Below the pieces are notes generated by a model. It ran no database searches and was not told the origin of the DNA. It saw only the letters and a list, made by a program, of their open reading frames with translations. DNA of 63,362 bases, filler included, from Asterionella formosa (Eukaryota): assembly GCA_002256025.1 (NCBI GenBank). It is 25 parts of 25 records of this genome, joined end to end, with 100 filler letters (N's around TTAATTAATTAA, not from the genome) between each part and the next. Parts side by side here need not be neighbours in the genome. Positions count along the whole stretch, not along the records: positions 17,894 to 19,001 come from NKIB01004280.1; 24 more parts are not named here. One strand, written 5' to 3'. Positions 529 through 56,842 of this stretch are shown piece by piece (positions within the stretch are counted from its first letter, which is position 1; the number at the start of each line of letters is the position of its first letter). The position numbers and the translations under genes were made by a program.

Positions 529-620
529 AGCAAGTTGCTGGTAATTTTGAATAACTAAAGATTTAGCTATTTCTATCCCAGATTGAATTGTCTATTTAAG
601 CAAAACTACCGCAACTTGCT
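529..620. mobile_element. ~90-bp mini inverted-repeat element (MITE-like), copy 1
   Basis: Ends AGCAAGTTGCTGGTAATTTT and AAAACTACCGCAACTTGCT are imperfect inverted repeats. A related copy lies at 19557-19641, and lone ends at ~43278 and ~53026. Confidence 0.55.
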
Positions 621-1950: not shown

Positions 1951-2378
1951 GCGAATTTATTATTCTTGAGAATTTCTTTAGAGTTATAATCAGCGTTCCT
2001 TAACATCATGGATTCTTAACAAGTAAATCCTTGCGTACTGCACATAATCCCAAACAGAAGTAAATTATTTTTCGTATTGCTGGTGTTCACACCAGAATCT
2101 TTGCTCAATGATCTTTTAAATAATAATGTTGAATTTCTTCCTCTTGCATATAACCAAGATGACAGCTCGGGCGACACGCAACAACAACATGCCACAGCAA
2201 CCATCATGAAGCATGATGTCATACCGGTCGTATCACATCAATATGCATTTTATATATGCAAAACGTATATCAGCCATTACGACGCAGGTACATCATTACC
2301 GGCATAATAACAGGTACAGTTCAGTGCCGTGGTACTATCTTAGGTAGCCGTCCAGACCACTATCACTGGCCTATCACT

Positions 2379-2460
2379 GGTACCTGGTACCAGGTACCTG
2401 GTACCTGGTACCAGAGGGTACCGGTGCAAAGGTATGGTACCATGTACCTGGTAAGGTACA
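2379..2460. repeat. Palindromic GGTACC/CCWGG low-complexity tract
   Basis: Contains the perfect 20-bp palindrome GGTACCTGGTACCAGGTACC (2379-2398) and further GGTACC copies. Confidence 0.85.
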
Positions 2461-15373: not shown

Positions 15374-15480
15374 GTACCCCTGGTACCGAATACCGGTAGT
15401 CTACCAATGGTACCCTGGTACCTGGTACCGGTCGAACCAGGTACCGGTACCGGTACCAGGTACCAGGTACCAGTACCGGC
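15374..15480. repeat. Palindromic GGTACC/ACCGGT/CCWGG tract upstream of the methyltransferase-like gene
   Basis: Dense array of GGTACC, ACCGGT, CCTGG and CCAGG with fold-back symmetry. Confidence 0.85.
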
Positions 15481-17964: not shown

Positions 17965-18362
17965 CAGAACACCATATGTTCAGGACTGTTGCTACTGCAG
18001 TGGGACAGTAAATCATCATATTTTTAGGATCGTATGATCGTAAAAAACACCATATTTTTATGACTGTTGTAATTACATTGGGACAGTAAATTATCATAGT
18101 TTTAGGATCGTATGATCGTAAAACTAAAAACAAATAGAATACCATATGTTCATGACTGTTGCAATTACAGTGGGACAGTAAATCATCATAGTTTTAGGAT
18201 TGTATGATCGTGAAACTGAAAAGCGGTACCGGTAGTTGGAGTAATAAGCAAGCAATAGAACACCATAGTACTAAATCATCATAGTTTTAGGATTGTATAA
18301 ATAGAACACCATATACATATGTCTATGACTGCTGCTACTACAGCGGGGCAGTACCGGTAAAT
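17965..18362. repeat. Degenerate tandem repeat, ~80-90-bp unit, 4-5 copies
   Basis: Recurrent ACCATATGTTCA-GACTGTTG…GGGACAGTAAATCATCATA-TTTTAGGATCGTATGATCG. Confidence 0.85.
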
Positions 18363-18379
18363 GAATTTAAGATCATCGA

Positions 18380-18729
18380 ACTTTAAGGAAGACAACGACA
18401 ACAGCTGGTCGTGTTGCTGGTCCACTTTTAATGGCCGAAGAAGGAAGCGACGAAAAGATCACCATTACGAGCGGAACGAGAGAAATCGCTTACGACGCCA
18501 AGTCTGGACGATTCTTTGAGAATAACTTGCAGGAAGAAGAATGCATTCCTGACGAGGAATACTGTGTCGTCGATCCGGAAAGTGGGGAACTCATTCGTCT
18601 CACAGTAGCCGAAAAGGAGCGTATCTTTCTGGACGCGCTTCAGTCCTACTATGCCACTGGAAGGCAAATGCTCAAGGATGATGAGTTTGACCTATTGAAG
18701 GAAGATTTGCAATGGAACGGATCTGAGCA
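18380..18729 (+). pseudogene. PGRL1: Internal fragment of PGR5-like protein 1 (cyclic electron flow)
   Basis: EKERIFLDALQSYYATGRQMLKDDEFDLLKEDLQWNGS matches the PGRL1 core. In-frame stop at 18368 removes the signal peptide. Similarity ends at WNGSE with no GT donor. Confidence 0.75.
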
Positions 18730-19556
18730 TATATATAGCTAAAACAAGGAAAGACGACACGACAATTAACGTGATGACTGGTTGTTGAGGATACCGGTAT
18801 GTGATATGCATCAATCCATATCACAAATCATATTATAGTGATGTACATATCAACACATCCGTATACTTAGATCATATCCACTGTATAATACTATCATATT
18901 AACTGTTGACTTTAACTGTATATATTAAACGACAAACATATATATTAATTAACATACTTTATGATTGCTTGATTTATATTCTGTGATGTATCGATAACAC
19001 TNNNNNNNNNNNNNNNNNNNNNNNNNNNNNNNNNNNNNNNNNNNNTTAATTAATTAANNNNNNNNNNNNNNNNNNNNNNNNNNNNNNNNNNNNNNNNNNN
19101 NTCACACTTGTGCAGTCTTCCTCATTATGCTTATTTTTACTGTACAATGAATAAATACTTATAAATTAGTATATATTGTAATGCGAAACGATTCCCTTGA
19201 CATTTTGTTGTTTTGTGGGACGGCATTAATATTACGAAGCGACATGATGGATTCGGAATCTGGTACCAGGTACTACCAATTCAGACATGTGACATGTGAC
19301 ACATTTCCCCAGCAACGAGATGGCGTCTGTCGGTTGTGTGTCGCAAAGTTCAATTGTCATAGTCGTCGGATGCAATCATTCAAGTCACAACTTCGGTCAG
19401 TTTCTGGTACCTGGTACCGAAAGCTAAAAAGCATACTATCACAACGATCGACATATATAAAGATAAAATAACAGAATTAAATAAAAACCTGTCAATATAA
19501 TAGAATTAAATAAAAAGCTGTCAATACGGAGGAGTGTTAAAAAGGCCAGCTATCTC

Positions 19557-19641: not shown

Positions 19642-20574
19642 CAGGTACCAGGGTTACCAATTATACATAGCAGCAGTCATATGATCAGCGTTCTGGAAAA
19701 ATTCCTTTTTAGGACTTACAGTGTGGGTGTGTTAATTAATTACAAATAGTAAGGTTAAAGTTTAGTACGGTGCACATGCATGTATATCACATTCTCCTGC
19801 ACGTGAAAGGAAAATATATTTTGAGTCTAGAAAAGTGTAATAGGGCATTGACACGAATTGTATAATTTTCATATCAATGAATGTCTACATGTTCCAGCAT
19901 TTAAAGCAATAATTAAAATCAGCAACATTGCATAGACAGTGCAGCAATGCGTTCGGTTTAAAATGACCAACGGTGGTGGAATCTTTTTTCTACTTATGAT
20001 GCACCTTCTTTATTGTTACATCATTCGGATTTCTGATGACCCTTCAGACGATTCATGTCAAAAGTAGGACGTTGAAAACAGTAATAATTATATTAAACGA
20101 GAAATAAAAAGTCGATTACTTGTTATCACGAGGTTTTATGATTGGTTAGCGTTTGCTTATTGTGCTCTCCCAGATCGCAGGTTTTACAGTGATAGTCTCG
20201 GAATCGTANNNNNNNNNNNNNNNNNNNNNNNNNNNNNNNNNNNNNNNNNNNNTTAATTAATTAANNNNNNNNNNNNNNNNNNNNNNNNNNNNNNNNNNNN
20301 NNNNNNNNTATCAAAGATGCGGACAAGTTCAATAGTTAATTCAAGTACAGTATGCCAAATGCAGAAACGAGCGAGCGATATGAAAATGAAATGCGTTCTA
20401 ATCAGAATCATTCTATAACTATAGCTATGTGGACAGTAGTCTGTTACGCACATTTTCGTATCTCCTTCTATGCTGAATCGAAATAGTAGATGTAATATCA
20501 TGTGAGAATTGAAAATTTCAACGAGAACAAGTACCGGTAGAATGTGTCTGTTTACGGGTTGATTGGCGAGATTG

Positions 20575-21415
20575 TCATGCTGAAGTGGACGAAACAGATA
20601 TACTTTGTGCGCAAAATCGGAAGTTGGTAGGGTTTATAATGTCGTTTATTTCTCCGTTCTGAATGATTGGACCATTAATAGCAGCAGCATCATGATATAC
20701 TAAACTATCAAGGAATAAACCATTATCATAGTCATCGGCATCAAAACAAACTGTTTGAACGAAATCAATGGCTGCTGGCGATTGTTTCAGGAATTTTGCA
20801 AGGAGGTCTTGAGAGTGGTGTCGTCCATCTCTTCGAGAAGTCGCTACCATTGATGATGTCTGCGATGCTTGAATCTGAGATTGAATCATATATTGTTGCC
20901 CACACAAGGGGCTGTGTCTGTGATGACCACAAATTGATTTAAAAGGACCTTTACCACAGAATTGACATTTGTCCTCGTCGTTATTGTCACACAGATCCAT
21001 GATATTTACTGTCGTTGCAGTGCTGTGTTGGCGAGAGAAAAATAAGAATAACCGCTAGCTAAAATAATGGACCCTGTTCGGCACATATTTGGCAAACAAT
21101 ACTACCTGGTACCATCCTCATCAGTAGACATAATTCCACCAGTGATGATTTTGAGTAATAATAATCACGTAAAAAAATTGGGTTGCCTACCAGCCACTGG
21201 CTAGTAGTACATTTACCTAGTACCGGTAATAACCTACATAACATGAAAACTGGGAAGAGGGAGCTTTCTTACCGGTAAGTGTGAGTTCTTCATGTGATGT
21301 GTACAACCGTAAAACTTTGATCTCAGATGGATGACATTAGACACCACAAATATCCTTACTATTTCATTAAGTAAAATGCGTGTTGTGAATGTATTAGCCT
21401 CAAGAGCAGGATCTT
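20575..21415 (-). mobile_element. Zinc-finger repeat family, copy 1 (ORF 20575-21000)
   Basis: Near-identical to three other contigs. ORF begins MDLCDNNDEDKCQFCGKGPFKSICGHHRHSPLC. Confidence 0.6.
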
Positions 21416-27547: not shown

Positions 27548-28371
27548 TGTCCATCCTGTCCCTCCTGCGTGCGCCGCTGATGGCCGCCGCCATCGCCGCT
27601 GCCGCTGCTGTCACCAGCTTCGCCCCGACCCCCGCTTTTGCTCAAGCCTCGGCCCCGGCCGCTGAAGCCGCAGCGCCTGCTGCTGCCGTGGCGCCTGAAG
27701 TGAAGAAGGAAACCATCGACAACCCCTACGGCCTGGATGCGCTGTGGAGCCAGGGCGACTTTGTCGCTCGCGGCACGCTGATCATCATGATCATCATGTC
27801 GATGGGCTCGTGGTACATCATCTTCACGAAGCTGTTCGAGCAGCGCAAGCTGATGAAGGCCGCTGACGCTGCGGCCGAGACGTTCTGGCAAGCCGGCTCG
27901 ATCAAGAAGGGTGCAGAGACCCTGGAAGAAGGCTCGGCCTTCCGCTACATCGCCGAGCAGGGCCTGAAGGCGAGCGAGCACCACGAAGGCACGCTGGTCG
28001 AGAACATCGACCTGAACACCTGGATCGGCATGGGCGTGGACCGCTCGGTCGGCAACATCAACAGCCGCATGCAGGACGGCCTGGCCTTCCTGGCCACCGT
28101 CGGCTCGACCGCGCCGTTCGTCGGTCTGTTCGGCACGGTGTGGGGCATCTATCACGCGCTGACGGCCATCGGCCTGTCGGGCAATGCCTCGATCGAGAAG
28201 GTCGCCGGTCCGGTCGGTGAAGCGCTGATCATGACCGCCTTCGGCTTGGCTGTGGCTGTGCCTGCGGTGATGGGCTACAACTGGCTGATCCGTCGCAACA
28301 AGAGCGTGATGGAGAAGGTCCGTGCCTTCTCGGGCGACCTGCACAACGTGCTGCTCGCCGGCAAGCGGTAA
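27548..28371 (+). CDS. exbB: MotA/TolQ/ExbB proton channel protein (bacterial)
   Basis: LATVGSTAPFVGLFGTVWGI and VGEALIMTAFGLAVAVPA signatures. High-GC codon usage. The contig starts TG TCC, so the ATG probably lost its A in the gap. Confidence 0.93.
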
Positions 28372-28383
28372 ATAGAGCCCCAA

Positions 28384-28404
28384 GACGACGCCTTGGGCGT
28401 CGTC
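28384..28404 (+). other. Intergenic GC-rich hairpin between exbB and exbD
   Basis: GACGACGCC-TTG-GGCGTCGTC with no U-tract. GAGGAGG RBS precedes the ATG at 28485. Confidence 0.6.
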
Positions 28405-28484
28405 GCCCCCCGAGGGGAGCGATTTCCCTTGGGACGGCCCGGCGGGAAATCAGAGCCCCGCGGACATGTGAATGAGGAGGCCCT

Positions 28485-28653
28485 ATGGGCATGAGCATCG
28501 GCGCCGCCAGCGATGACGGCGAAGAGCAGATGAACTCCAGCATCAACACCACCCCGCTGGTGGATGTGATGCTGGTGCTGCTGATCATTTTCCTGATCAC
28601 CATCCCGGTGGTCACGCAGTCGGTGAAGCTGCAGCTGCCGCGCGAGACCAACG
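28485..28653 (+). CDS. exbD: ExbD/TolR biopolymer transport protein, partial (bacterial)
   Basis: INTTPLVDVMLVLLIIFLIT signature, directly downstream of exbB. Confidence 0.92.
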
Positions 28654-29959: not shown

Positions 29960-30578
29960 ATAGGTCCATGTCACACAGCTTGCTCTAGGAACCAACAAAC
30001 CAACAATCAAGCAGGTATTGTGGACAAACAAGCAAACATGGATGTGGATCCTGATAATGAAAGTAACCTTCCAAGACACCAAAACTATATTTGTTGTTTG
30101 GTAAGAATGGGAAGTTGGAATCACCGAACAAAAAACCAGAAAGGCTTCTATTTACAAGCAGCAGGGAGACAGGGAGCAGGATGAGGAAATATGCATCTAC
30201 TATTGGCAGCGCAAGGTTGTCTGGGATGCAGTGGCAACTCTAGCTAGTTTGAGTGGTTACATGGCACATGTAGTCCTGTATTAAATCTATGAGACATATG
30301 GTCAGGATAAGATTGTTACTCACATTCTCGTCAACCAAATGTTGAAAGGTTGCAGTGGTGGTGGGCATCCACAACTACAGTCGTGTTAAGCTAGATAAAT
30401 GCGTATACTACTAAATAATAACATAAATACTTACTATATGAAATTCAAATTTCATTTTCAATGTACTGTACCTTGTTATTTCATTGCCTGCTTCTTACCT
30501 GGTATAAACACCAGACCAGTTGAATCAGCAGTACACACAACGAAGCTAGCAAAATCCGGCAACACCAGGTGCTGGCAC
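29960..30578. repeat. Dispersed non-coding repeat, copy A
   Basis: High identity to 32852-33473. Confidence 0.85.
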
Positions 30579-31177
30579 CTGGAACATACCGTGGTACCAG
30601 CTACCGGTACCAGGGTACTTCATGCATTGTAACAGCATCGCCCCTGGTACCAGGTACCAGGTACAAGCAACGGTGGCACCGCCCACTCACACACAGTGCA
30701 TGCTTTGTACGTGCATCATGATAGTTAACTAGTGCACTAGCTTTCACAACGACAAAAAAAAGTACCGGTAGTATTGGGGGTAGAATTAATTGTCAATACT
30801 GGCACACCCAGTATAGGAAAAACAGGCTAAAACAACTTAATACAAACGTTTGAATGCTAATACCGGTACTACCGGTAGGTACCAGGTACGTTACCTGGTA
30901 CAGCGAAGGTTGGCTGTGTTGTCGCGGAAAAATTCTACGCGTGTCCCGGTATTTACCGGCAGTCATCTTCCCCATGATAGTCCTCGCAGTCGCCGCCAAC
31001 ATCCTAATGGGATCATCATCCTTCTGTCTATTAGTAGCCTAGTTCCCTTTGCATCGCCNNNNNNNNNNNNNNNNNNNNNNNNNNNNNNNNNNNNNNNNNN
31101 NNTTAATTAATTAANNNNNNNNNNNNNNNNNNNNNNNNNNNNNNNNNNNNNNNNNNNNACTCAAATAAAGGAGCAGA

Positions 31178-32851: not shown

Positions 32852-33473
32852 ATAGGTCCATGTTACACAGCTTGCTCTAGGAACCAACAAACCAACAATC
32901 AAGCAGGTATTGCGGACAAACAAGCAAACATGGATGTGGATCCCGATAATGAAAGAAACCTTCCAAGACACCAAAACTATATTTGTTCTTTGGTAAGAAT
33001 GGGAAGTTGGAATCACTGAACCAAAAACCAGAAAGGCTACTATTTACAAGCAGCAGGGCAGGGCACCAGGGAGCAGGATGAGGAAATATGCATCTACTAT
33101 TGGCAGCGCAAGGTTGTCTGGGATGCAGTGGCAACTCTAGCTAGTTTGAGTGGGTATATGGCATATGTAGCCCTGTATTAAATCTATGAGACATATGGTC
33201 AGGATAAGATTTGTTACTCAAATTCTCGTCAACCAAATGTTGAAAGGTTGCAGTGATGGTGGGCATCCACAACTAAAGCCATGTTAAGCTAGATAAATGT
33301 GTATACTACTAAATAATAACATAAATACTTACTATATTAAATTCAAATTTTTTTCAATGTACTGTACCTTGTTATTTCATTGCCTGCTTCTTACCCAGTA
33401 TAAATACCAGACCAGTTGAATCAGCATTACACACAACGAAGCTAGCAAAATCCGGCAACACCAGGTGCTGGCA
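32852..33473. repeat. Dispersed non-coding repeat, copy B
   Basis: Matches 29960-30578. Confidence 0.85.
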
Positions 33474-33572: not shown

Positions 33573-34679
33573 NGATATACTTTGTGCGCAAAATCGGAAG
33601 TTGGTAGGGTTTATAATGTCGTTTATTTCTCCGTTCTGAATGATTGGACCATTAATAGCAGCAGCATCATGATCTACTAAACTATCAAGGAATAAACCAT
33701 TATCATAGTCATCGGCATCAAAACAAACTGTTTGAACGAAATCAATGGCTGCTGGCGATTGTTTCAGGAATTTTGCAAGGGGGTCTTGAGAGTGGTGTCG
33801 TCCATCTCTTCGAGAAGTCGCTACCATTGATGAGGTCTGCGATGCTTGAATCTGAGATTGAATCATATATTGTTGCCCACACAAGGGGCTGTGTCTGTGA
33901 TGACCACGAATTAATTTAAAAGGACCTTTACCACAGAATTTACATTTGTCCTCGTCGTTATTGTCACACAGATCCATGATATTTACTGTCGTTGCAGTGC
34001 TGTGTTGGCAAGAGAAAAATAAGAATAACAGGTAGCTAAAATAATGGACCTTGTTTGGCACATATTTGGCAAACAATACTACCTGGTACCATCCTCATCA
34101 GTAGACATAATTCAACCAGTGTTGATTTTGAGTAATAATAATCACGTAAAAAAATTGGGTTGCCTACCACTGGCTAGTAGTACATTTACCTAGTACCGGT
34201 AATAACCTACATAACATGAAAACTGGGAAGAGGGAGCTTTTTTACCGGTAAGTGTGAGTTCTTCATGTGATTTGTACAACCGTAAAACTTTGATCTCAGA
34301 TGGATGACATTAGACACCACAAATATCCTTACTATTTCATTAAGTAAAATGCGTGTTATGAATGTATTAGCCTCAAGAGCAGGATCTTAGTTGATTTTTC
34401 AAATGAATTATTTGAAACATCAACTAATTCAGTCTTGCGTTCAAAATTCATTGTGAAAACTTCACATGAAACAGTTAAAACTTCACATGAAACCGTTAAA
34501 ACTTCACATGAAACCGTTAAAAGTAATCTTTTCTACGTGAAGAGTGGCATTAATGCATGTGAAGTACCACATAATTAACACTCGTACGAAAACGAAATTT
34601 CGAAAAGTCAAATGAATTATTTGAAACATCAACTAATTTAGTCTCGCGTTCAAAATTCATTGTGAAAACTTCACATGAA
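33573..34679 (-). mobile_element. Zinc-finger repeat family, copy 2
   Basis: Same ORF as copy 1. Upstream are three 21-bp AAAACTTCACATGAAAC(A/C)GTT repeats and a ~210-bp duplication. Confidence 0.6.
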
Positions 34680-34955: not shown

Positions 34956-35255
34956 AGATGGTTAGTAATGTACCATAAGCAATCTATTAAGCTTTTGATG
35001 TATATCCTGATATGAAACTGTCTAATATAAACTTGGATGAATACGTGTACCGGTATCCGATGAAATCTCTAGAGGGGAATTCCAAACTCGATGTTGCCCG
35101 GAGATTTCCTACATATGGTAAGCAGTATGACCGGTACTCCCAGTAATCGTGGCGGCGGTGGCGAGGTCGACGGGTATAAGAGATTCCGGGTTCTTTTGGC
35201 GATCTTTAATTTGCTTGATTTTTGGCATCATTATTATTGTTGGCAGCTAATATAC

Positions 35256-35884
35256 CCGTATACTTCATTGTCCTGGACCCCCCAATGTACACTGCCGTGA
35301 CTGAATTTGACTGATTTTACTTAAGGGGGGGCCCAGGACAATGAAGAGATTTCCCTTATAATAGACCTAAGGAAATTTCTTTAGTTCTACAGGATAGCGC
35401 ACATTTTTCTAAGATGTATTAATATGACAATTATTTCTGTCTTGTGAAAAATGAGAGAGTTCTTCACCTCGCAAGAAAAACGCGACTTCATGTTGTTATC
35501 GGCGATCTCAATTTTCGTTGTCATTATTAGTGTTATTACTTTACTTCTTTTACGATTGTATTTTCCATGTCATTCTTAATACAGGCAGCAAGTAGCAAAG
35601 CGTCGTTCTCTATTTTCGTGGAGGTAATTCGTATTTTCGTCATGGTCAAGGTTGCGACAACATCATGAAGGATTCTCCAGCTGCTCACAGCCACTACCTA
35701 TCGTCTCTTGTGTTTTGTATGTACAAAAGAATCGCAAAATGGTAGCTAAATAATTATGTACTAGTGCCCACGAGGACAAAAAGAAATATAGCACGTTACT
35801 TTGTCTATGACAAGAAAATTATTGGGTGTTTGGTTCCACCTCGAGAAAAATGTACAGGGGGGTCCAGCAACCATAGGGGGGGTC
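35256..35884 (+). mobile_element. Internally deleted derivative (MITE) of the pogo-like element at 48641-50941
   Basis: The left ~230 bp and right ~90 bp match the two ends of the full element; the middle is unrelated filler. Confidence 0.85.
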
Positions 35885-37089: not shown

Positions 37090-37261
37090 NNNNNNNNNNN
37101 NNNNNNNNNNNNNNNNNNNNNNNNNNNNNNNNNTTAATTAATTAANNNNNNNNNNNNNNNNNNNNNNNNNNNNNNNNNNNNNNNNNNNNGGCATCACAAC
37201 AGCATCGCGATAGGTGTGAGGGGGTGCTGGAATGATCTTGCGGCCAGTGGCAGGAGAGGAC

Positions 37262-38294
37262 CTAGGGGTACATCTAAGCCGCGAAATACGCCACTTTTCG
37301 AAATTTCGTCTAAGTAAGAGTGTTAATTATGTGGTACTTCACATGCATTAATGCCACTCTTCACGTAAAAAAGATTACTTTTAACGGTTTCATGTGAAGT
37401 TTTAACTGCTTCATGTGAAGTTTTCACAATGAATTTTGAACGCGAGACTGAATTAGTTGATGTTTCAAATAATTCATTTGAAAGTTCAACTAAGATCCTT
37501 CTCTTGAGGCTAATACATTCACAACACGCATTTTACTTAATGAAATAGTAAGGATATTTGTGGTGTCTAATGTCATCCATCTGAGATCAAAGTTTTACGG
37601 TTGTACACATCACATGAAGAACTCACACTTACCGGTAAAAAAATCCCTCTTCCCAGTTTTCATGTTATGTAGGTTATTACCGGTACTAGGTAAATGTACT
37701 ACTAGCCAGTGGTAGGCAACCCAATTTTTTTACGTGATTATTATTACTCAAAATCAACATTGGTGGAATTATGTCTACTGATGAAGATGGTACCAGGTAG
37801 TATTGTTTGCCAAATATGTGCCAAACAAAGTCCATTATTTTAGCTACCTGTTATTCTTATTTTTCCCTCGCCAACACAGCACTACAACGACAATAAATAT
37901 CATGGATCTGTGTGAAATTAACGACAAGGACAAATGTAAATTCTGTGGTAAAGGTCCTTGTAAATCAATTCGTGGTCATCACAGACACAGCCCCTCGTGT
38001 GGGTAACAATATATGGTTCAATCTCAGATTCAAGCATCGCAGACATCATCAATGGTAGCGACTTCTCGAAGAGATGGACGACACCACTCTCAAGACCCCC
38101 CTTGAAAAATTCCTGAAACAATCGCCAGCAGCCATTGATTTCGTTCAAACAGTTTGTTTTGATGCCGATGACTATGATAATGGTTTATTCCTTGATAGTT
38201 TAGTAGATCATGATGCTGCTGCTATTAATGGTCCAATCATTCAGAACGGAGAAATAAACGACATTATAAACCCTACCAACTTCCGATTTTGCGC
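37262..38294 (+). mobile_element. Zinc-finger repeat family, copy 3 (disrupted ORF; may include the element terminus)
   Basis: Same sequence in reverse orientation, with a premature TAA at 38004 and a frameshift. Lacks the upstream duplication. Confidence 0.55.
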
Positions 38295-38394: not shown

Positions 38395-39502
38395 GATATA
38401 CTTTGTGCGCAAAATCGGAAGTTGGTAGGGTTTATAATGTCGTTTATTTCTCCGTTCTGAATGATTGGACCATTAATAGCAGCAGCATCATGATCTACTA
38501 AACTATCAAGGAATAAACCATTATCATAGTCATCGGCATCAAAACAAACTGTTTGAACGAAATCAATGGCTGCTGGCGATTGTTTCAGGAATTTTGCAAG
38601 GGGGTCTTGAGAGTGGTGTCGTCCATCTCTTCGAGAAGTCGCTACCATTAATGATGTCTGCGATGCTTGAATCTGAGATTGAATCATATATTGTTGCCCA
38701 CACAAGGGGCTGTGTCTGTGATGACCACGAATTGATTTAAAAGGACCTTTACCACAGAATTTACATTTGTCCTCGTCGTTATTGTCACACAGATCCATGA
38801 TATTTACTGTCATTGCAGTGCTGGTGTGTTGGCAAGAGAAAAATAAGAATAACAGGTAGCTAAAATAATGGACCTTGTTTGGCACATATTTGGCAAACAA
38901 TACTACCTGGTACCATCCTCATCAGTAGACATAATTCAACCAGTGTTGATTTTGAGTAATAATAATCACGTAAAAAATTGGGTTGCCTACCACTGGCTAG
39001 TAGTACATTTACCTAGTACCGGTAATAACCTACATAACATGAAAACTGGGAAGAGGGAGCTTTTTTACCGGTAAGTGTGAGTTCTTCATGTGATGTGTAC
39101 AACCGTAAAACTTTGATCTCAGATGGATGACATTAGACACCACAAATATCCTTACTATTTCATTAAGTAAAATGCGTGTTGTGAATGTATTAGCCTCAAG
39201 AGCAGGATCTTAGTTGAACTTTCAAATGAATTATTTGAAACATCAACTAATTCAGTCTCGCGTTCAAAATTCATTGTGAAAACTTCACATGAAACAGTTA
39301 AAACTTCACATGATACCGTTAAAACTTCACATGAAACCGTTAAAAGTAATCTTTTTTACGTGAAGAGTGGCATTAATGCATGTGAAGTACCACATAATTA
39401 ACACTCGTACGTAGACGAAATTTCGAAAAGTCAAATGAATTATTTGAAACATCAACTAATTCAGTCTCGCGTTCAAAATTCATTGTGAAAACTTCACATG
39501 AA
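38395..39502 (-). mobile_element. Zinc-finger repeat family, copy 4
   Basis: Near-identical to copy 2, with the same contig breakpoints. Confidence 0.6.
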
Positions 39503-42199: not shown

Positions 42200-42530
42200 A
42201 GAGAAAATTTGCTTCATAAATATCATCTACATGGAGGTCAGGTAAGGATTCTTCAGGATGGAGGTGTTGAAGATGACGGGCAATGGCCTGACAATGGTTC
42301 ATGCTATGAAGATTCCTCCAAGCAGTGGTTGAATTGTCACAGAAGGTACATGCCATCAGAGAGACTGGAAAGGAAGCTGGAAGCTACAACGTAGCTGAAC
42401 TGAAAACAATGGTGACATGGTACAAGCGCACCTGCGATGCGCCGCTTCCAATAACCAGACAGAACTTGTTGGCAAGATACTTGGAGACTTGTTGCTGTGG
42501 AGAAAAGGATTCTCCATATCCAATTCGGCC
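42200..42530 (+). pseudogene. Probable C-terminal remnant of a DNA transposon ORF
   Basis: YNVAELKTMVTWYKRTCDAPLPITRQNLLARY resembles a SAP-like tail of diatom pogo-type proteins (from recall, not searched). Confidence 0.35.
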
Positions 42531-44249
42531 TCTTGATGTTGTGCTTGTGGAAGGGCATACTCATGTTACTGGGCTACTGGGTACATTGACTGTCGATTAC
42601 ATAATGAACATAATACATACTATACTGGTACAGTAATTATACTGGTTGGTAAGAAAAAAATGAAATCTCATCACCATCATGCTTCCATCATTCCCATGTC
42701 ACAATGCATCCTTTTTGCAGCAGCAATACAAGCAATCATGCCTAAGATAATAAATAACTTTTTTGACATCTTTTGCTTTAAAAGAATGGAATATTCTAAA
42801 CTAAATAATGATGTACAAGTGCTTATGAGTGCTACCCCGGGCACCCTGAGCAGCATGAGTCCACCCAGCATGCATACAGTGGTATTGTATGATTGTTACT
42901 ATATTGGGTACCACTAGTTGTTACATATGATGACACTAGCATTCTTTGAATATTCAAAACCAAATAAATATAGCACCATTCATTATTTGTTGTTTTCGTC
43001 ACTTTGGCCGGAAAAAGAAAACGATTTTGAGTTTCTTGGAGAGAACAAAGCAAAGTTAGCAAGACTTGCTTACTTTTTCTTTGGGACGCCCCTCTATTGC
43101 CCCAGTCATTTTCTTTTTCTTTTTAGCCATTTGCCTCCTTTTGATGTTTCCGCGTTTAGACAAAATAATATTTACATCACTAGCTAGTTGTGATACTGTT
43201 GATTGAAAGAGAAAGTTGATGACATTCCCTATTTAGTCTTTTTAAGCGCATGTCCTGCATCACGTTATCCATTTCAGAAAAATTACCGCAACTTTCTGGT
43301 ACATGGAAGGTCTGGTAATGCACGTTTTATGCGCACTTTTTCAGTTTCAGCTCACTCCCAATAATTTCTCCCATGCCTAACACCAGAAGGATAAGGCTGG
43401 CTTTCCATTCCAAACTCTCTTAAGTAACTTTCTATCCCGTTAAATTATCATTCATTCAATCCAACAAGTCGTGTTCTGATTGTCGAAATCGTGTTCACCT
43501 ACTTCTAGTACTGGTAATAGTATTCAGGAACTGGATGATGGTTTGGTTATAGACTGCACAAATCACTCAGTAACTTCTAGAGCAAATTCTATTCTTACTA
43601 GTCAGTAAGAAATCATATGCGTGGTCTGCAATTTCATTTATAGTCGTGGTTAGCAAACTTTGAAGTAGTCACTAACTGGATCAGTACTTGTAAAAAAGTC
43701 ATTTTGAAAATATGAATAGACTGTTATTTGATATTGTTAAATAGCGAATCAACCAAAATTTGATTCGACCTATAGATTACCGTAGTGTAGCATGATGTTG
43801 CATACTGTGAATGGGTCAAATCATGTTGTAACTTCGCCGCTTTGAATTATGCATCATTGAAACTATTTGAAGCAATTCGCTGCCACTGGTGATTTCAATT
43901 TTCGTTTTCATTTTTTGTTGTCATTTTTAGTGATATTATAATGATTCTTCTATAATTGTATTGTAAAAATCATGAATAATAAACTGGCATGTACCAAATA
44001 GCATGATAGCATCGTTCTCATTTTCCATGGAGATATTCAGTGTCATGCTGGTCAAGGCGGAATGACACGATGCAGCCAGGATTCTCCAGCTGCTCACAAC
44101 GACTACATTTTAGCGTTTAATATATAGAAATAAATCGTAACATCTTTGCTAAGTATTTATAAACTTGCATCTACAACGGCTACCTTCTTGGGTACCCTGA
44201 GCACATATTGTATGAATAGCTTTAGTATCTGTGATATGTATGATATTTC

Positions 44250-44476
44250 GGGGAATGGCTTAGTGGTTAGCACACCTGATGCGGTGGTGGCAAGTTCCAT
44301 TCCTGCATTCTCCACCTGTCTTTTTCATGTAGTCCCTAGAGTTCTGTGGGGTGTGGCTGACAAAAAGACAGGTCCCGTTGTACTTTACGGACGAATAAAT
44401 CTGGTACTAATTGTGTCCATTTATTCATTTATCTGGGCACGAGTGCGATTATTGCATAGCTTTAACGTACTATAAG
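44250..44476 (+). mobile_element. tRNA-Ala-derived SINE-like element, copy 1
   Basis: Head GGGGAAT…ATTCTCCA forms a 7-bp acceptor stem with G3:U70. A-box TGGCTTAGTGG and degenerate B-box AGTTCCATTCC. The ~160-bp body is shared with 51915-52161. Confidence 0.7.
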
Positions 44477-45459
44477 ATAATTTTTTGAAATGTATGATGC
44501 TTGCAAATATGCCAGTACCTGCCTGGTATGCTGTTGCTGCCGCATCACGTGTGATAAGAATAACTGTGATTATGTACATGGATATAACATTACATATGTT
44601 CATAGCAGTATTAGCATGGCTATTAGAGGGCATCTAGTACATAGTTGTGTATGTTCATGTTACCGGTGATTCATTTTTATAAGGGTCATTCTTCAGAAAA
44701 CCTATTTTTATTTGCTAGCAAGTTCTTTTCATAGTCAGCAAATTCTACCAGTAGCTGTTTTCAGCAAGTTCTAGTTGTTTTGTCATATAGAATGATTCCC
44801 ATTTGTATTCCGTAGCAAGAAGACTGTTTCTTGAACCAGTTGATCATGCAGAAAATCCAAGTCGTATTCAGAGTTTGATTCTGCAAATCGTCACAGGTCA
44901 ATAAGAGTAGTAACGTTTTCCTAAATGACTGAAGGAATATTATTTTTATCGAAAGCTGGTCGATCTTGGGAGTGAATTGTTACTGAAAAGGTGCTCATGA
45001 AACATGCACTACTGGACCTTCCTGGAGAATGGGGGTTGTTAAATTACCGGGTAAACTGCTGGTACTTGGCGAGGAATGTTCTGCTTTGCTCTATTATGTG
45101 CCGGTCGGTTGTCAGCCAGCCAGCACCCATCGACTGTGATGTAGGATGACAAATTTTTTTCAAGGGATCAGGCCCACAAAAAAAATTAATTTATAATTCA
45201 CTATTTATCTGTTCAGAATTTTTGTATGAAATTGTCATCATGACAGTTGTTTCCACCACCAAGTCAGCATACTCGCTCAGAGAAAATTTTGAATATGTAC
45301 AAAATATATACTGACTCAAAGAGGAATAATTGGGTTTGTGCTTGCTGCATTCTAAGTAGTCAACACAGAATTCTATGTTAAGGTAACTTTGGAAATAAGT
45401 TACCAAAGCAACAAAAAGCACAAAACGCTTATTTACTTTCGACTTTGTACCAAATGCGT

Positions 45460-45630
45460 ATTTACTTTTTACTAAAGCACCAAATGCTTACCCGCATTCA
45501 CTTTTAACTGAAGCAGCAAGGGTAAAGAGCGCAAGCCAAACCTCCATGGAAGCGTTCCAGCCCTTGCATGATTATTGCAAAAACTGTAAAATTAGCTAAT
45601 AAAATTCACGGTTTTAAGCACGTTTTCCCG
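45460..45630 (+). repeat. Dispersed repeat, related to 61245-61460 in the opposite orientation
   Basis: Shared AAGCACCAAATGCTT…TTCACTTTTAACT-AAGCA-CAAGG…CAAGCCAA-CCTC…GGAAGCGT. Confidence 0.7.
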
Positions 45631-45913
45631 ATGTCCCTGGTACCAGTGTACCGTTACCCTGGTACCCTGTGACTACGTATGTACCGGTCTACATAAAATG
45701 GATCCGGTCATGCAAGGACCCCAAGTACCTGGTACTGGTACCGGTCGGTACCAGGGGTACTACCTCTCTTGTATGTACATGGTGATGTCACGAATCCCAT
45801 CACAGCCAAAGACATCAGCAGCCCAAGCATCACAAGGAAGGCTAGAACCAAGGCCTCATCAGTCGCTCATCACATCATCTCATCATCTCATCATCAATCA
45901 TCTTCCTGCCAAG

Positions 45914-47566
45914 ATGATGTCAAAAAAATTATGCGTTTTTGTAGAATGGGCCATCTTTAGTGCGCTTTGGATTCCCGTTGTCATTGCAGCATCATCGTCA
46001 AAGAGCGCTGGCCTTTTAGCGCACCTTCCAGATTCCATTTGTCAAGATGGAAACAAGAACGAAGACGAGGACGAATCTAGCTACTTGCCCAATATTTTCG
46101 GTCTATGCGTCGGTCCCAGCTCGAGAAGCAGGAAAAACGTCAGGAACGTTAAAAATTCTGCAACTCTGGTGACATCTACATCAACTAAAACCGACTCAGT
46201 GACGTCGCCTGGCATGCGAATCGGGGACCCACAGCTTCCTCATTTCTCGTGGGACGATCCTGGCGAAGATATCGAAACGACCGGAGTCAATGAAACCACA
46301 TTTTTTCCTGGGGAGCAACATGAATCCTTGCAGACACCCCGTCAACAGCAAGCCACGTTCGACGACGACGATGACATTGGTGCTTCCTTAGACTTTCATC
46401 CGAAAGAAGAAGCGCTGGCTCAAAGTGAGACTTTTGGACATTCATCAGTCGTATATCGTTATTTTGGTAGATCTAGGGCCCGGGCTCGATCCTGTGACTC
46501 CATCCCTTTTATTTTATTCGGACCGTCAGTCGACCATTGGAAGACTGCTGGTCAGACCTTGGCGTCGAGAGGGTTTTCGGTCATGGCGTGTGAACGAGGA
46601 CAACACGACGACGGTGAAGAGAGTGCATTAATTGTAGCAATCTTGGACGCCTTGCGGTGGCCTCGGGCGATTTTGGTTGGCTGCGACAAGGAATCATCTC
46701 TTGCCATCAAAGCCGCGATGGAGTTGGCACCAGAGCGAGTGGCCGGACTTGTTCTTTGTGGCGACTTATCTTCAGCAGAAGCCATGTTAAGTCGGCCGAT
46801 AAACGAAGGCGTTTCTTTTGCTCTCGACCAGTTTCTATTGGAGAATCTTGAATGCCCTTTCACTATCATTTGGGATGGTGACCTTCCTCGCCGACGTGCT
46901 GCTCGCTCAAATATCCATGAGGTAGGAACTGCACAACGATGCCTAATTCTTGGCGGGGGATCAGCTCCTCATCGACGTCAACCCGAGCACTTTGCTTGGA
47001 CTTTGACCCGTTTTGTGGAAGAAAAAGTGGACCCTCCGGTACTTGTCGCCCATCGTAGTAGACCATCAGAAGTTGGAACTGAAACTGAAACTGAATCGAA
47101 AAATTTCGCATTGCCATTTGGATGGGATGGCTTTATTGCGCCAGGAAGTCTCCTAGTGGCCGGGCGAATCATTGCGAATGCGCTTCTATTGGCATCGTTT
47201 GGAAAGATATTTGTTTATCAATTCGAAAACTTTCAACACGGTATTGTGCTTTTTCAGTCTCGCGCTAAATTGGTGCACAGCTGGCCGCGACGAATCCTTT
47301 TCTCCGTTATTGCCTTTGTATTTCGGCGCAACGAGCCTATCACTACGGAATCAGAGGACGCTGCCGTGCTCCCGACCATGAAAGAAGAGAGTGAGCCCGT
47401 GGATCCAGAGCTATCAAATGAAGAAAATAGTGAGGGTCAGTCGGACAGCGACGCTCAAAGAAAAGCCGAGAACTACCACGAACTCGAGGAGGAACTTTCA
47501 GGCCAGCCTATGAATACCATCAGCCCATACCAAGGTTTGATGTTTCTCGACCAAGTGATATCCTAG
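45914..47566 (+). CDS. Alpha/beta-hydrolase-fold protein with signal peptide, probably non-catalytic
   Basis: LASRGFSVMA, LDALRWPRAILVGCD, APERVAGLVL, CPFTIIWDG and GSAPHRRQPEHF follow the hydrolase fold, but the GxSxG Ser is absent (VGCDKE). ATG at 45914 precedes a hydrophobic leader. Confidence 0.7.
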   Translation: MMSKKLCVFVEWAIFSALWIPVVIAASSSKSAGLLAHLPDSICQDGNKNEDEDESSYLPNIFGLCVGPSSRSRKNVRNVKNSATLVTSTSTKTDSVTSPGMRIGDPQLPHFSWDDPGEDIETTGVNETTFFPGEQHESLQTPRQQQATFDDDDDIGASLDFHPKEEALAQSETFGHSSVVYRYFGRSRARARSCDSIPFILFGPSVDHWKTAGQTLASRGFSVMACERGQHDDGEESALIVAILDALRWPRAILVGCDKESSLAIKAAMELAPERVAGLVLCGDLSSAEAMLSRPINEGVSFALDQFLLENLECPFTIIWDGDLPRRRAARSNIHEVGTAQRCLILGGGSAPHRRQPEHFAWTLTRFVEEKVDPPVLVAHRSRPSEVGTETETESKNFALPFGWDGFIAPGSLLVAGRIIANALLLASFGKIFVYQFENFQHGIVLFQSRAKLVHSWPRRILFSVIAFVFRRNEPITTESEDAAVLPTMKEESEPVDPELSNEENSEGQSDSDAQRKAENYHELEEELSGQPMNTISPYQGLMFLDQVIS

Positions 47567-47935
47567 TCAGTGTACTGTTACAATAACCATAGATTCATCA
47601 ATGAATTATTTCTCTTATCCAAATACTGTACTATTTTTCTTTCCGGTTAGGGGAAGTCTAATTCAGTAGCAGTACTGATACTACCGGTGCCAGCTACTCC
47701 GGAGTACCAGGTCATGTAGTTGTCTATAACACAGGGACCGGTATAAGTCGGTCGTATTGCACTATCGAGATGTGCCGGTTAGTCTCGATACACCATTTAC
47801 GCACCTACAATAACTTATTGCAGGGGGTGCGTATTCTGTCTACTATTTTTACGGTTAACATCCATTTAAAATTCATAATACTAGAGGTTCAAAGCGGTAT
47901 ATGAAAATATCTTAATACTGCTGAATTAATTACTG

Positions 47936-48520: not shown

Positions 48521-48821
48521 CAACAGTGTCCGAAAATGCACAAACCAAGATCAGTCAGGCAAATTCGTGACTTTTTGCACAATTAGAATTTTCTAGTTGC
48601 ATAAAGTACTCGAATGTCTGTGTGCATGTCTACCGGTATACCGTATACTTCATTGTCCTGGACCCCCCAATGTACGCTGCCGTGACTGAATTTGACTGAT
48701 TTTACTTAAGGGGGGTCCAGAACAATGAAGAATTTTCCTAAGTTAATTTTATTAGTTCTACAGGATGGCGCACATTTTTCAAATATTTATTAATATGATC
48801 ACTGTTTCCGAAAAGTGAAAA

Positions 48822-50021
48822 ATGAGAAAGTTCTTCACCTTGCAAGAAAAGCACGACATTGTGGATGAAGCATGGGAACTCCCTGGCATCATCAAGGCTG
48901 TTGCACGCAAGTATGGCATTGGCGCCAGCAATATTCGGCGCTGGAAAGTTAACTTTCATGATTTTGACAATCGTTATTCTGATGTAGAAGGTTTATTGTC
49001 GGATGAGTGGCGTCTCCTTCTGAAAAAACAAACTTTTCATTTAGGCAAGTCACATAGCAATAGTAGTGCAACTGAATTTGCGGCGATTCGTCTCTTGTAT
49101 GATCAGCTTCGTGGTAATGATCACGCTTGTTCGATCATGTTGCTTGCTGCTGAGCTGAAGCGTTTGTCAGTACATGTTGTTAGCTTGAGTGTTATTCAAC
49201 AGCATGTAGCTCATTGGTGCACATCCCAAAACATCATGTATCGTCGTATCACCCACAAGGCACAAAACACGCGCTATGTACTGAGTGTCATGCAGGAAAA
49301 TATCCAGTACATAAACGCACAGTTTCTTGAAGGTTCATAGCTATCATCATGCTAGTATCGTAAATATAGATGAGACAAACATTTATTTCGATATGGCAGG
49401 CGGGCTCACGCTAGCTGATAAAGATGCGAAAGCCATCAGTTTATGCACCAATGGCAGCAGCATGCGTTGCACAGTGTTGTTGGGTGTTACTATGTCTGGA
49501 TAGAAGCGTGCTCATCTTGTTGTTTTCAAAGAAGTACCTGATGCCAGGATCCAGCAAGAATTTAAAAATCAACAGTTTGCTTATCCACCACAGATGGTTT
49601 ATTGTTGTCATGCAAAGGCGTGGTGGGTTGATGAGTCGGTGTTTGCGCTTTGGATTCGGAAAGTCTGGAAACCATGGACAATCAGCCATAATTCTCAGCC
49701 AAGCTACCTCCTGATGGAAGAGTTCCAGGTGCATTTTATGGCGACGAGCCTCAATGCAATTAAGGATTGTGGCACTGCTGTGGACTTCATTTGTGGTGGC
49801 TACACACATCAAAACTTCAAGTTTTGGACGTTGGAGTAAACAATCCCTTTAAGGGTTTTGTTACTAGGAATGCCTATGAGGACTGGATGGTCGCCCATCC
49901 TCATGGTACAAAGGTGAAGCGGCAGGATGTCGCTCAGTGGGTTTGGACAGCTTGGCTGAGGGTGTCACAATCAACAATTTTGAACACTTGGAATGCGGTT
50001 GGTTACATTGCAAGCGATTGA
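48822..50021 (+). pseudogene. Pogo-family DDE transposase, disrupted
   Basis: N-terminal HTH (FTLQEK…VARKYGIGASNIRRW), NIDETNIYFDM, WVDE, LMEEFQVH and GGYT/SKLQVLDVGVNNPFK. Stops at ~49338 and ~49501 plus a frameshift. Confidence 0.9.
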
Positions 50022-50332
50022 TGACTCTATTTTATTCAAAAAGTGGAGCATGTGACTAGAAATATAACTTTATAGTCTGTTTAAGCATGCTCTATTGTTA
50101 TATTATTGATTTGTAGAAGCAATTCCATAGCACTAATGTTAAAAAGCTTAAGTCGTAATATACGATTTGATTTTTCGTGTTGAAGCTAGTAGAACTACAG
50201 TTGACGTGAATCAGTATCATAAATGCTAAAGGAAATGACTCTAGAGTCTATTTACTGTTCTCAAATATTATAATAAATAGTATAGAATGCATTTCTATAT
50301 CGTTATTAAGACGAGGACTGCTACAATCGAAT

Positions 50333-50744
50333 CTACTCCTGGCCTTGAAGATCCTCCATCAAGCGGAGTGAAGCCATTTGGGCATTCCTCTTGCTCTTCT
50401 TTCTCATCATAGAATTTTCATTTGTCATCATACAGTTCTAGCACCTGCGCAAACTTGTCGATGTACTTGCTCCGTTGTGAAGGCAATGCTGCAACTTCTC
50501 TGCCCAGAAACCCAACAGGGCAAAGTTCCGTGCCATCCTTGATGAGGACAGCCTTGATTGTCTCCAATGGCTTGCCCAATACATCCTCTACAACAGCCAG
50601 CTTGAACCTGATCACATCATCAGCCATAACCGCTTTCTTGCAGCATTCATGTTGCTCACATGAGCGCCCATTGCTGGAAGCATTCAGTCCAAGCAACTCC
50701 CCATCTCGGCGGCTGTTGATTGTTGCTGATCTTGTTGTTGACAT
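50333..50744 (-). pseudogene. Accessory ORF inside the pogo element (Cys/His-rich, HIRAN-like), one frameshift near 50420
   Basis: GRSCEQHECC…TIKAVLIKDGTELCPVGFLGREVA…FAQVLELYDD continues, after a 1-nt shift, as ENSMMRKKSKRNAQMASLRLMEDLQGQE-stop. Confidence 0.65.
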
Positions 50745-51227
50745 GATTACTAATATGTAGTATGCATTGGTGCGTAGTACCGATATTACCGGTAGTTTAT
50801 AATGGTAGCGTCATTCAATTTCCGCAACAAAAATCAGAATCATAGCACGTTACTTTGTCTATGTCTAGAAAACTATTGGGTGTTTGGTACCACCTCGAAA
50901 AAAATGTACACCAGGGGGGTCCAGGACAATGAAGTAAACGGTATTAAATTGCAAAATGACCAAATCAAGATTCCAACAAAGAAATATGAACCATGACAAT
51001 TAGTGTGTACATGAAACTCAGTACAAATATTTTTGGTCATTTCTTGCATTTTCAGCTGTTGTGCTGTTTCCGAGATTTCATTTTTTCTAAGTTTTTCTCA
51101 TCCATTTGTACAGTAGATAAAAAACAATATCTATAATCAGTTATCAAGCGAGCCACTGCTGTTTTAATGGTGCCTCCCCTCTGGCTATATCTTCAAAACT
51201 GAGCAAACGAGGACCAAAAACAACTTC

Positions 51228-51655
51228 TAGCAGCAGTTTCAACTTTTTGTTGTCCATATTACATCAAAAAGTTTATCATTGAACGATTACCTTAACTATG
51301 CTAGTCTACATATACGTCGTGTGAAATAGTAATTGTTCATTGTAAATTTTAGTGGAGATATTCAGTCCAATAATTTCGTCATGGTCAAGATGGAGTTGCC
51401 TTGCTGTCTCATCGTCCCTCCACTACAGCAGCACAAACTAGTAGCAGCAATTTCAACTTTTTGTTGTCCATATTACATCAAAAAATTTATCATTGAACGA
51501 TTACCTCGACTATGTTAGTTTACATATACGCCGTGCGAAATAGGAATTGTTCATTGTAAATTTTAGTGGAGATATTCAGTCCAATTATTTCGTCATGCAT
51601 GGTCAAGATGGAGTTGCCTTGCTGTCTCATCATCCCTCCACCACAGCAGTACAAA
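51228..51655. repeat. ~213-bp tandem duplication
   Basis: GCAGCA-TTTCAACTTTTT…GTGGAGATATTCAGTCCAAT…GGTCAAGATGGAGTTGCC present twice. Related segments at ~35610-35700 and ~44020-44105. Confidence 0.85.
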
Positions 51656-56334: not shown

Positions 56335-56842
56335 AAGCTACAGTTTCATAGTACCAGCTTAGTAATAGGTACGGTTTCACTGCAGCCATATCAAGTTCCG
56401 GCCGGGTATTGAGACAAGGGGAAGAAGGGAATGCTGGTAGGGCAAACGTACAGTTTCACAGTACCAGCGTAGTAATACGTACAGTTTCACTGTAGCCACA
56501 TCATGTTCCGACAGGGTATTGAGACAAGGGAAAGAAGGGAATGCTGGTAGGGCAAACCTACAGTTTAACAGTACCAGCGTAGTATTAGCTAGGTACAGTT
56601 TCACAGTAGCCACGTCATGTTCCGACCTGGTATTGAGACAAGGGGAAGAAGGGAATGCTGGTAGGGAAAACCTACAGACTCACAGTACCAGCGTAGTATT
56701 AGCTAGGTACAGTTTCACAGTAGCCTCGTCATGTTCCGACCAGGTATTGAGACAAGGGGAAGAAGGGAATGCTAGTAGGGCAAACCTACAGTTTCACAGT
56801 ACCATCGTAGCTAGTATTAGCTAGGTACAGTTTCACAGTACC
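56335..56842. repeat. Tandem repeat, 110-114-bp unit, ~4.5 copies
   Basis: GTATTGAGACAAGGG at 56406, 56516, 56630 and 56744. Confidence 0.92.

What the first reader, a model, noticed from the sequence alone, without database searches (positions are those of the whole stretch)
18300..18362. Copy-specific insertions repeatedly create palindromes: a candidate genome-wide mutational mechanism
Seen by comparing repeat copies: CAGTAAAT becomes CAGTA-CCGGTA-AAT (18354-18359, creating TACCGGTA); CCATATGT becomes CCATATACATATGT (~18310); CTACCACTGGCTAG becomes CTACCAGCCACTGGCTAG (21191); GTCATGG becomes GTCATGCATGG (~51595); GTAGTA becomes GTAGCTAGTA (~56810); a TIR GCAAGTTGCGG becomes CCAGCAA-G-TTGCTGG (527-541); GGTTCC versus GGTACC (~35832 vs ~50886). 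In each case the longer or odd copy has gained local inverted symmetry. Established: template switching at quasi-palindromes and hairpin-opening repair (P-nucleotides, hAT footprints) produce such inverted micro-duplications. Inference: an unusually active process of this kind operates here and, iterated, builds the GGTACC/ACCGGT tracts. This is the strongest candidate in the window for an undescribed phenomenon.
Basis: partly seen in the sequence, partly recalled or inferred. Interest (0 to 1): 0.75.

Follow-up and report, generated by a model that had tools for sequence, protein, structure and literature searches.

The report
Two kinds of transposon excision scars
The small insertions in this alga's repeated DNA are mostly not mirror copies of neighbouring sequence; they are two fixed types of scar (TA-CCGG-TA, and any duplicated base pair around G, C or GC) that match two abundant families of cut-and-paste jumping genes and were probably left when these jumped out.

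Summary
The insertions are real and frequent, but they are direct 2-bp duplications around a fixed filler, not inverted micro-duplications. Class A (the headline site, 18354) is TA-CCGG-TA. Three pogo-like families begin TA|CCGTA, one copy lies at 48641-50941, and their flank preference matches that of TACCGGTA. Class B (21191, 51595, 56808) is D-GC-D or D-G/C-D for any dinucleotide D: 25 of 33 polarised 4-bp insertions (nulls 1-16%); for non-palindromic D, 34 direct and 0 inverted among 83 four-base events. The D spectrum matches the targets of a Plavaka family (817 ends, CATCT..AGATG, 2-bp duplication). Its ends read C..G while the scar reads GC, so the filler would be the complement of the ends (hairpin, or untemplated G). 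Palindromes are a by-product. No locus was found both with an element and with its scar, and the 7-bp TA-CC(A/T)GG-TA type has no donor. This scan reported class A many times and class B once (donor unidentified) on other pieces of this genome; the Plavaka link is added here.

The parts
18352..18359 (.). Class A scar TA-CCGG-TA (headline site) in the last unit of a 78-93 bp tandem repeat
   Evidence: empty, single, double and triple alleles; 132 matches to the other units in fetched DNA are all empty
18310..18321 (.). 6-bp insertion (CATA-TA-CATA); not class A or B; can be read as a reverse-complement copy of the right flank, so a possible template switch
   Evidence: 17 short, 20 long
18269..18273 (.).
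   Evidence: 2 of 20 loci (the window's contig and one identical over this stretch)
21191..21196 (.). Class B scar CA-GC-CA (direct duplication, not a palindrome)
   Evidence: 27 short, 1 long, 1 other
51595..51600 (.). Class B scar AT-GC-AT in one of two 214-bp tandem units
56808..56813 (.). Class B scar TA-GC-TA in one of the 114-bp tandem units
48641..50941 (+). Decayed pogo-like DNA transposon, TIRs starting CCGT, TA on both sides (48639-48640, 50942-50943); candidate donor type for class A; a TACCGGTA lies directly upstream (48631-48638); class B scars inside at 50216, 50748, 50770
   Evidence: (DDE_1 E 1.2e-5 above cut-off; CENP-B_N E 0.001 below cut-off)
35256..35884 (+). Non-autonomous ~640-bp derivative of the same pogo-like family, cut by the contig end; holds the GGTTCC form
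38395..39502 (-). Piece of the Plavaka-type element (start of the transposase gene and subterminal repeats); like pieces at 20309-21415, 33574-34679, 37190-38294; candidate donor family for class B
   Evidence: PF18759 E 1.7e-8 on the adjoining frame in L076
17894..19001 (.). High-copy repeat that holds the headline site; found joined to Plavaka pieces in other contigs, probably an internal part of that element (no whole element assembled)
   Evidence: (576 candidates, 40 scored)
531..618 (.).
2377..2424 (.). GGTACC/ACCGGT tract of 7- and 6-bp units (another at 15390-15479)

Best explanation
The insertions are excision footprints of two abundant cut-and-paste transposon groups. (A) pogo-like elements insert at TA and duplicate it; on excision the first bases of each end (CC or CCG) stay on the flanks and are joined, giving TA-CCGG-TA; CpG decay gives CCAG/CTGG. 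(B) A Plavaka-type (CMCT clade) element with C..G ends duplicates a 2-bp target of loose preference; on excision both copies stay and one G and/or one C is added, giving D-G-D, D-C-D or D-GC-D. As the scar reads GC and not CG, the filler is the complement of the ends: either a flank hairpin with the terminal C at its tip is opened and filled in, or a repair polymerase adds an untemplated G to each 3' end. Palindromes arise when a self-complementary filler sits between two TA or AT. Tracts grow when more 6-7 bp units are added at an existing scar, by re-targeting or slippage. Shown: scar forms, their excess, donor ends, duplications, matching target preferences. Inferred: that excision made them, the strand chemistry, how tracts grow.
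For:: of 110 polarised insertions, 25 of 33 four-base are D-GC-D (nulls: tandem 16%, P-nucleotide 2.1%, switch 1.2%, random 1.1%; p 5e-14 against tandem), 28 of 34 three-base are D-G/C-D, 8 are class A; where the filler is unambiguous it is G/C in 28 of 29 three-base and GC in 21 of 29 four-base events (CG 0); 34 direct, 0 inverted; in 400 kb TACCGGTA 168 sites (5.5 expected), GC the top 2-base filler (1.35x). Class A donors: 333 TIR hits, 27 of 30 ends after TA; three families start CCGTA, with complete TA-flanked copies; T just outside the TA is 0.10 for pogo ends (n=41) and 0.10 for TACCGGTA (n=307) against 0.25 for all TA. Class B donor: 817 ends, PF18759, 2-bp duplication shown with empty sites for GA and TT; D spectrum of 103 scars vs 49 ends p 0.94, each vs background p below 1e-18, without TA Spearman 0.80; base outside D also matches (p 0.89). 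One TA is seen empty (3 copies), as TA-C-TA (1) and as TA-GC-TA plus a Plavaka end (1).
Against: No locus was found both with an element and with its scar: five flank searches gave none. GC is the reverse of what direct remnants of C..G ends would give, and no paper found describes CACTA/Plavaka scars of this form. The 7-bp TA-CC(A/T)GG-TA type (146 sites in 400 kb, 3.2 expected) has another flank profile (G outside the TA 0.69) and no donor. A TA-flanked family with CTG ends leaves no clear excess of TA-CAG-TA (79 vs 72). Scars outnumber living elements by roughly 100 to 1 (extrapolation). 12 of 46 long-majority ('deletion') events are also class A or B, 165 of 321 events could not be polarised, 34 of 110 insertions are multi-base and fit neither class and 13 are single bases. 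One end pair mismatched (TA/CA) and one partner-end search found nothing. 10 of 17 class A events have a local copy of the filler, so slippage can explain those.
Confidence: 0.65

Rival explanations
1. Class B scars come from 2-nt staggered breaks without a completed insert-and-excise cycle (abortive cutting of targets by the Plavaka transposase, or another nuclease), filled in and joined after untemplated G is added to each 3' end.
For: Explains G, C, GC and also the rarer GGC and GGCC fillers (3 of 321 events) with one rule; removes the need for tens of thousands of full cycles; one X-family polymerase domain and two Ku domains are present.
Against: A nuclease unrelated to the element would not be expected to share its target spectrum; class A fillers start with CC, so G addition is not general; the repair gene set is ordinary in number.
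Confidence: 0.17
2. Class B scars are ordinary direct remnants of an element not yet found, with G(G)..(C)C ends and a 2-bp duplication.
For: The same logic that explains class A gives G, C, GC, GGC, GGCC without new chemistry; my end searches covered under 1 Mb of 68 Mb.
Against: No such family among repeated ends or inverted pairs in 776 kb; the Plavaka family already fits the target spectrum and is very abundant.
Confidence: 0.1
3. One reading: template switching at quasi-palindromes or P-nucleotide repair makes inverted micro-duplications genome-wide.
For: Palindrome arms gain more often than under a tandem null (19 vs 6.9 of 93); 18310 and the T at 539 can be read this way.
Against: 0 inverted vs 34 direct; reverse-complement templates no more common than chance (18 vs 13.9; 43 vs 44.5); simulated switching gives D-GC-D in about 1-2% of cases; only 14 of 45 D-GC-D have a self-complementary D; the T at 539 never recurs.
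Confidence: 0.05
4. Amplification, sequencing or assembly artefact.
For: Fragmented short-contig assembly; only contigs, no raw reads, could be laid.
Against: Scars are shared by descent among diverged copies and decay by CpG change; contigs of runs X1 and X2 cover the TACCGGTA at 48631-48638 without gaps; 0 of 84 class A motifs of the window fall in 8.2 kb of long host reading frames or in the bacterial contig.
Confidence: 0.03

Closest known systems
Tc1/mariner/pogo excision footprints (Stowaway/Osmar, PMC4561436 passages; Tc1 taCATGta as cited in PMC3520976 passages; Sleeping Beauty recalled)
   Same: TA duplicated on both sides, with terminal bases of the element between; donors of this superfamily are present with CCG ends.
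   Different: One scar form at about one per 2.4 kb, far above the rare and varied footprints of rice (8 of 94 excisions perfect, PMC4423477 passages); stacked into tracts; a 7-bp form without a donor.
hAT (Ac/Ds) hairpin footprints with P nucleotides (PMC5873905, PMC4561436 passages)
   Same: A complemented base at the joint, if class B comes from C..G-ended elements.
   Different: In hAT the complemented base is the flank base next to the element, with inverted flank copies and deletions; here both target copies are whole, nothing is inverted, and the added base is always G or C.
PlavakaB elements, CMCT clade (PMC12730594 passages)
   Same: Plavaka transposase domain, 2-bp duplication, CATC.. 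termini.
   Different: Fifth base differs (CATCT vs CATCA); host is an alga, probably a diatom; no excision footprint for Plavaka was seen in the passages read.
Template switching / quasi-palindrome correction (recalled)
   Same: Can perfect palindromes; may explain 18310 and 539.
   Different: Needs the insert to be an inverted local copy, which the bulk is not.

Membership tests
Tc1/mariner/pogo excision footprint (class A) | TA kept on both sides of the filler | tested here: met
Tc1/mariner/pogo excision footprint (class A) | Filler equals terminal bases of a TA-targeting element in the same genome | tested here: met
   CCGG: three families start CCGTA after TA. Does not hold for the 7-bp type, next row
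Tc1/mariner/pogo excision footprint (7-bp CC(A/T)GG type) | Element with CCA/CCT/CCAG ends after TA | tested here: inconclusive
   none in 16 of 93 DDE_1 places fetched nor among repeated ends; no DDE_3 match
Any excision footprint | Same locus seen with the element and with the scar | tested here: not met
   searches found none; one search listed no joint across the whole pogo copy (229 joints not shown); low power in a collapsed assembly
Any excision footprint | Scar produced by the transposase in an excision assay | not testable with these tools
   needs bench work
hAT/RAG-type hairpin (P-nucleotide) footprint | Inverted copy of the flank at the joint | tested here: not met
   0 inverted vs 34 direct; 18 vs 13.9
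hAT/RAG-type hairpin (P-nucleotide) footprint | Joint centred on the complement of the base at the cut | tested here: inconclusive
   GC 21, CG 0 of 29 fits the complement of C..G ends, but untemplated G fits too
Template switch / quasi-palindrome correction | Insert is the reverse complement of nearby sequence more often than by chance | tested here: not met
   43 vs 44.5 of 93; 88 vs 104.3 of 220
PlavakaB (donor family) | Plavaka transposase domain | tested here: met
   PF18759 34.5 bits, cut-off 26.3
PlavakaB (donor family) | 2- or 3-bp target duplication | tested here: met
   GA and TT; one pair mismatched, one partner not found
PlavakaB (donor family) | Termini CATCA..TGATG | tested here: inconclusive
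   CATCT..AGATG, 4 of 5 bases; no phylogeny run
NuwaI (PHIS), for the 88-bp MITE | CWG target duplication | tested here: met
   53 of 87 ends have CWG
NuwaI (PHIS), for the 88-bp MITE | Autonomous partner with DDE and Myb/SANT genes | not tested
   no search made

The most novel reading that the evidence does not exclude
Plavaka/CMCT transposases excise by a RAG-like flank hairpin whose tip is the element's own terminal C, leaving a uniform D-G/C/GC-D scar. In this alga such scars, with pogo scars, make up about 40% of small insertions in repeats and number in the tens of thousands, so 'indel' spectra and abundant palindromic motifs of many genomes could be read as a record of which transposases were active, and scars seed tracts that another MITE then targets.
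Probability: 0.3. Interest if true: 0.72.

Novelty: new variant of a known kind. Interest (0 to 1): 0.47.

Why it matters
Excision footprints are known, but as rare and varied events. Here two uniform scar types supply about one insertion per 26 substitutions in repeats, break reading frames, and explain the dominant palindromic words of the non-coding DNA, which could be mistaken for regulatory motifs (the Phytophthora TACATGTA motif was argued not to be a footprint because of its abundance; PMC3520976 passages). If class B is the Plavaka scar, it is a first handle on how this untested transposase group cuts DNA and gives a simple cross-genome test.

Tried and rejected
Local inverted templating as the main source: rejected. 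CpG decay of CCCGG/CCGGG as the source of the 7-bp type: rejected, since CCCAG/CTGGG is not among the top ten 5-base fillers and CCCGG is 11 against CCAGG 146. The 88-bp MITE as a TA-flanked donor with CCWG ends: rejected, W is repeated directly, not inverted. Searches for scars at sites of known insertions: nothing. Split-alignment search for inserted elements gave mostly internal deletions and the MITE. De novo inverted-repeat and repeated-end scans found no G..C-ended family with a 2-bp duplication. A mistyped pattern gave no hit. Tc1-type DDE_3: no match. Repair genes: 1 X-family polymerase, 2 DRMBL, 2 Ku matches, nothing unusual; Pol theta not searched. Only assembled contigs of 4 of 24 listed runs were laid; most indel rows were cut (12 shown, 93 not). 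Paper searches for published CACTA/Plavaka or diatom pogo scars found no sequence to compare; the dahlia footprints are in a figure that is not held. No supplements were read; Figure S2 of PMC12730594 (Plavaka termini) may bear on the family assignment.

Full report
Setting. The window is a string of contigs: two of about 17.7 kb and 23 of about 1.1 kb, joined by N spacers. The genome is 68 Mb in 15,436 contigs, a eukaryote; runs that hold it include freshwater metagenomes. 'Diatom' is my reading from gene content and from earlier notes, not a tool result. One contig (27548-28653) is bacterial.

The seven examples. All are present. Five are multi-base insertions, one is a single T unique among the genome's copies of that arm, one is a substitution. 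The headline insertion is old within its family: of 100 listed copies (135 in all) 40 are empty, 50 have one CCGGTA, 5 two, 2 three, and 3 other forms (counted by eye). The two double copies I held are sisters on a star-like tree, so one event.

Catalogue of indels. All-against-all alignment of 251 non-redundant sequences (864 kb; of 267) gave 455 indels of up to 12 bp; 375 after merging near-duplicates, 321 after dropping 54 in A/T runs; 110 short-majority (insertions), 46 long-majority, 165 unpolarised. The loci were chosen for likeness to window repeats or for element ends, so this is not a random sample. Of the 110: 25 D-GC-D, 28 D-G/C-D, 2 with GGC/GGCC, 8 class A, 13 single bases, 34 other. 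D-GC-D is 25 of 33 four-base insertions, against 16% for random tandem duplication, 2.1% for P nucleotides and 1.2% for local switching. For three-base insertions a tandem null already gives 74%, so the informative count is the unambiguous one: G/C in 28 of 29; for four bases GC in 21 of 29 and CG in none (on the unmerged rows with their own de-duplication). Six of the seven multi-base differences shown when contigs of four public runs were laid on 42300-56300 are class B; these compare mainly paralogous copies, and 93 rows were not shown.

An inverted micro-duplication predicts D-x-rc(D). For non-palindromic D there are 34 direct and 0 inverted cases among 83 four-base events. The insert is the reverse complement of the adjacent flank in 18 of 93 (13.9 expected) and of sequence within 20 nt in 43 (44.5 expected). 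Palindrome arms do grow more often than chance (19 vs 6.9 for two or more pairs), which follows from self-complementary fillers between TA pairs.

Class A and its donors. In 400 kb from long contigs TACCGGTA occurs at 168 sites (5.5 expected), TACC(A/T)GGTA at 146 (3.2), the CCAG/CTGG form at 102 (15) and an 8-bp form at 26 (0.7). None of 84 such motifs in the window lies in 8.2 kb of long host reading frames. The window holds a pogo-like element at 48641-50941 with TA on both sides and TIRs starting CCGT; the TIR has 333 exact hits, 27 of 30 ends follow TA and 3 follow TAC. Two more families start CCGTA (16 of 93 DDE_1 places fetched). Two 3' overhangs CC, or CCG paired through CG, give CCGG: this is inference from the known mariner-type cut (PMC4561436, passages). 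Flanks agree: T outside the TA is 0.10 for 41 pogo ends and for 307 TACCGGTA half-sites, 0.25 for all TA. The 7-bp type has a different profile and no donor.

Class B and its candidate donor. A 2-bp duplication is shown for GA with 13 empty copies and for TT with one; one pair mismatched and one partner was not found. PlavakaB is described with 2-3 bp duplications and CATCA..TGATG ends, in a clade with Transib and RAG1 (PMC12730594, passages). Target pairs at 49 ends (TA 23, CA/TG 11, AA/TT 6, GA/TC 4, AT 2, three singles) match D in 103 scars (TA 40, CA 22, AA 18, GA 6, AC 5, AT 4, AG 4, CC 3, CG 1; polarised or not; 8 ambiguous dropped): p 0.94 between them, below 1e-18 each against background, and Spearman 0.80 without TA. 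The next base out matches too. One TA is seen empty, as TA-C-TA, and as TA-GC-TA followed by a Plavaka end; this shows a shared hot site, not an excision. Direct remnants of C..G ends would read CG. GC needs either a hairpin with the terminal C at the tip, opened on its 5' side and filled in, or an untemplated G on each 3' end; the second also yields GGC and GGCC. hAT scars are centred on a complemented base, but a flank base (PMC5873905, passages). I cannot choose between the two.

What is missing. No site with both element and scar. Extrapolated from a non-random 400 kb, scars run to tens of thousands against a few hundred elements, which asks for very many cycles or for abortive cuts. 12 of 46 long-majority events are class A or B; I read them as older insertions fixed in the sampled subfamily, shown only for the headline site. 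Tract growth: 8 of 59 listed copies with a first scar have further units while 132 matches to sister units have none, so existing scars attract more; slippage and re-targeting both fit, and 10 of 17 class A events have a local template.

Literature and earlier notes. Ten searches found no paper on these scars in diatoms or on Plavaka excision; the library lacks most subscription journals, including the older CACTA footprint papers, so absence is weak. I saw passages only of PMC3520976, PMC4482050, PMC12730594, PMC4561436, PMC4015899, PMC7481187, PMC4423477, PMC5873905 and bioRxiv 10.1101/2025.02.11.637652, and passages plus section 18 of PMC3193017; no supplements. Earlier notes of this scan on the same genome report class A repeatedly, class B once without a donor, and the Plavaka family separately; a word search joining Plavaka and scars found none. 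I had class A and class B, before reading those notes on each.

Verdict. Real and striking in scale, but a variant of a known process, not a new palindrome-making one. The open and testable part is the Plavaka-GC link.

Noticed in passing
window 531-618; L131-L160: 88-bp MITE, 485 arm hits, CWG duplication (NuwaI-like, PMC4482050 passages). It sits preferentially in the TACC(A/T)GGTA tracts: 29 of 53 CWG ends are preceded by TAC against 4% of all CWG. Several ends show an extra TG or AG between duplication and element, unexplained.
   Followed up: partly
window 18371-18742: 123-codon frame inside the high-copy repeat that resembles a piece of the photosynthesis gene PGRL1 (name from recall; no Pfam hit); possibly a captured host gene piece amplified with the Plavaka element.
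   Followed up: no
window 27548-28653: Bacterial contig (exbB/exbD-like, about 70% to Burkholderia/Variovorax plasmid records), with no class A motifs.
   Followed up: partly
window 29960-30600, 32852-33473; L101-L130: Another TA-flanked inverted-repeat family with CTG ends, rich in class B scars, without a clear footprint excess of its own.
   Followed up: partly
window 50418-50810 (- strand); L242-L246: pogo-like families carry a second small reading frame on the opposite strand to the transposase; no Pfam hit.
   Followed up: no
window 35253-35256; L021, L032, L042: 3 of 30 pogo ends have an extra C between TA and the TIR.
   Followed up: no
L194, L155, L175, L085: Elements framed by TTAA with GG..CC ends (Kolobok- or piggyBac-like by recall).
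   Followed up: no
window 58641-59744: 345-bp tandem repeat, three copies at 97%, with an open frame of repeated C2H2-like units.
   Followed up: no
L161-L200: 8-bp scar TA-CCAGGG-TA / TA-CCCTGG-TA is 26 vs 0.7 expected while its mirror CCTGGG is not among the top ten; hints at a donor with CCAG ends.
   Followed up: partly
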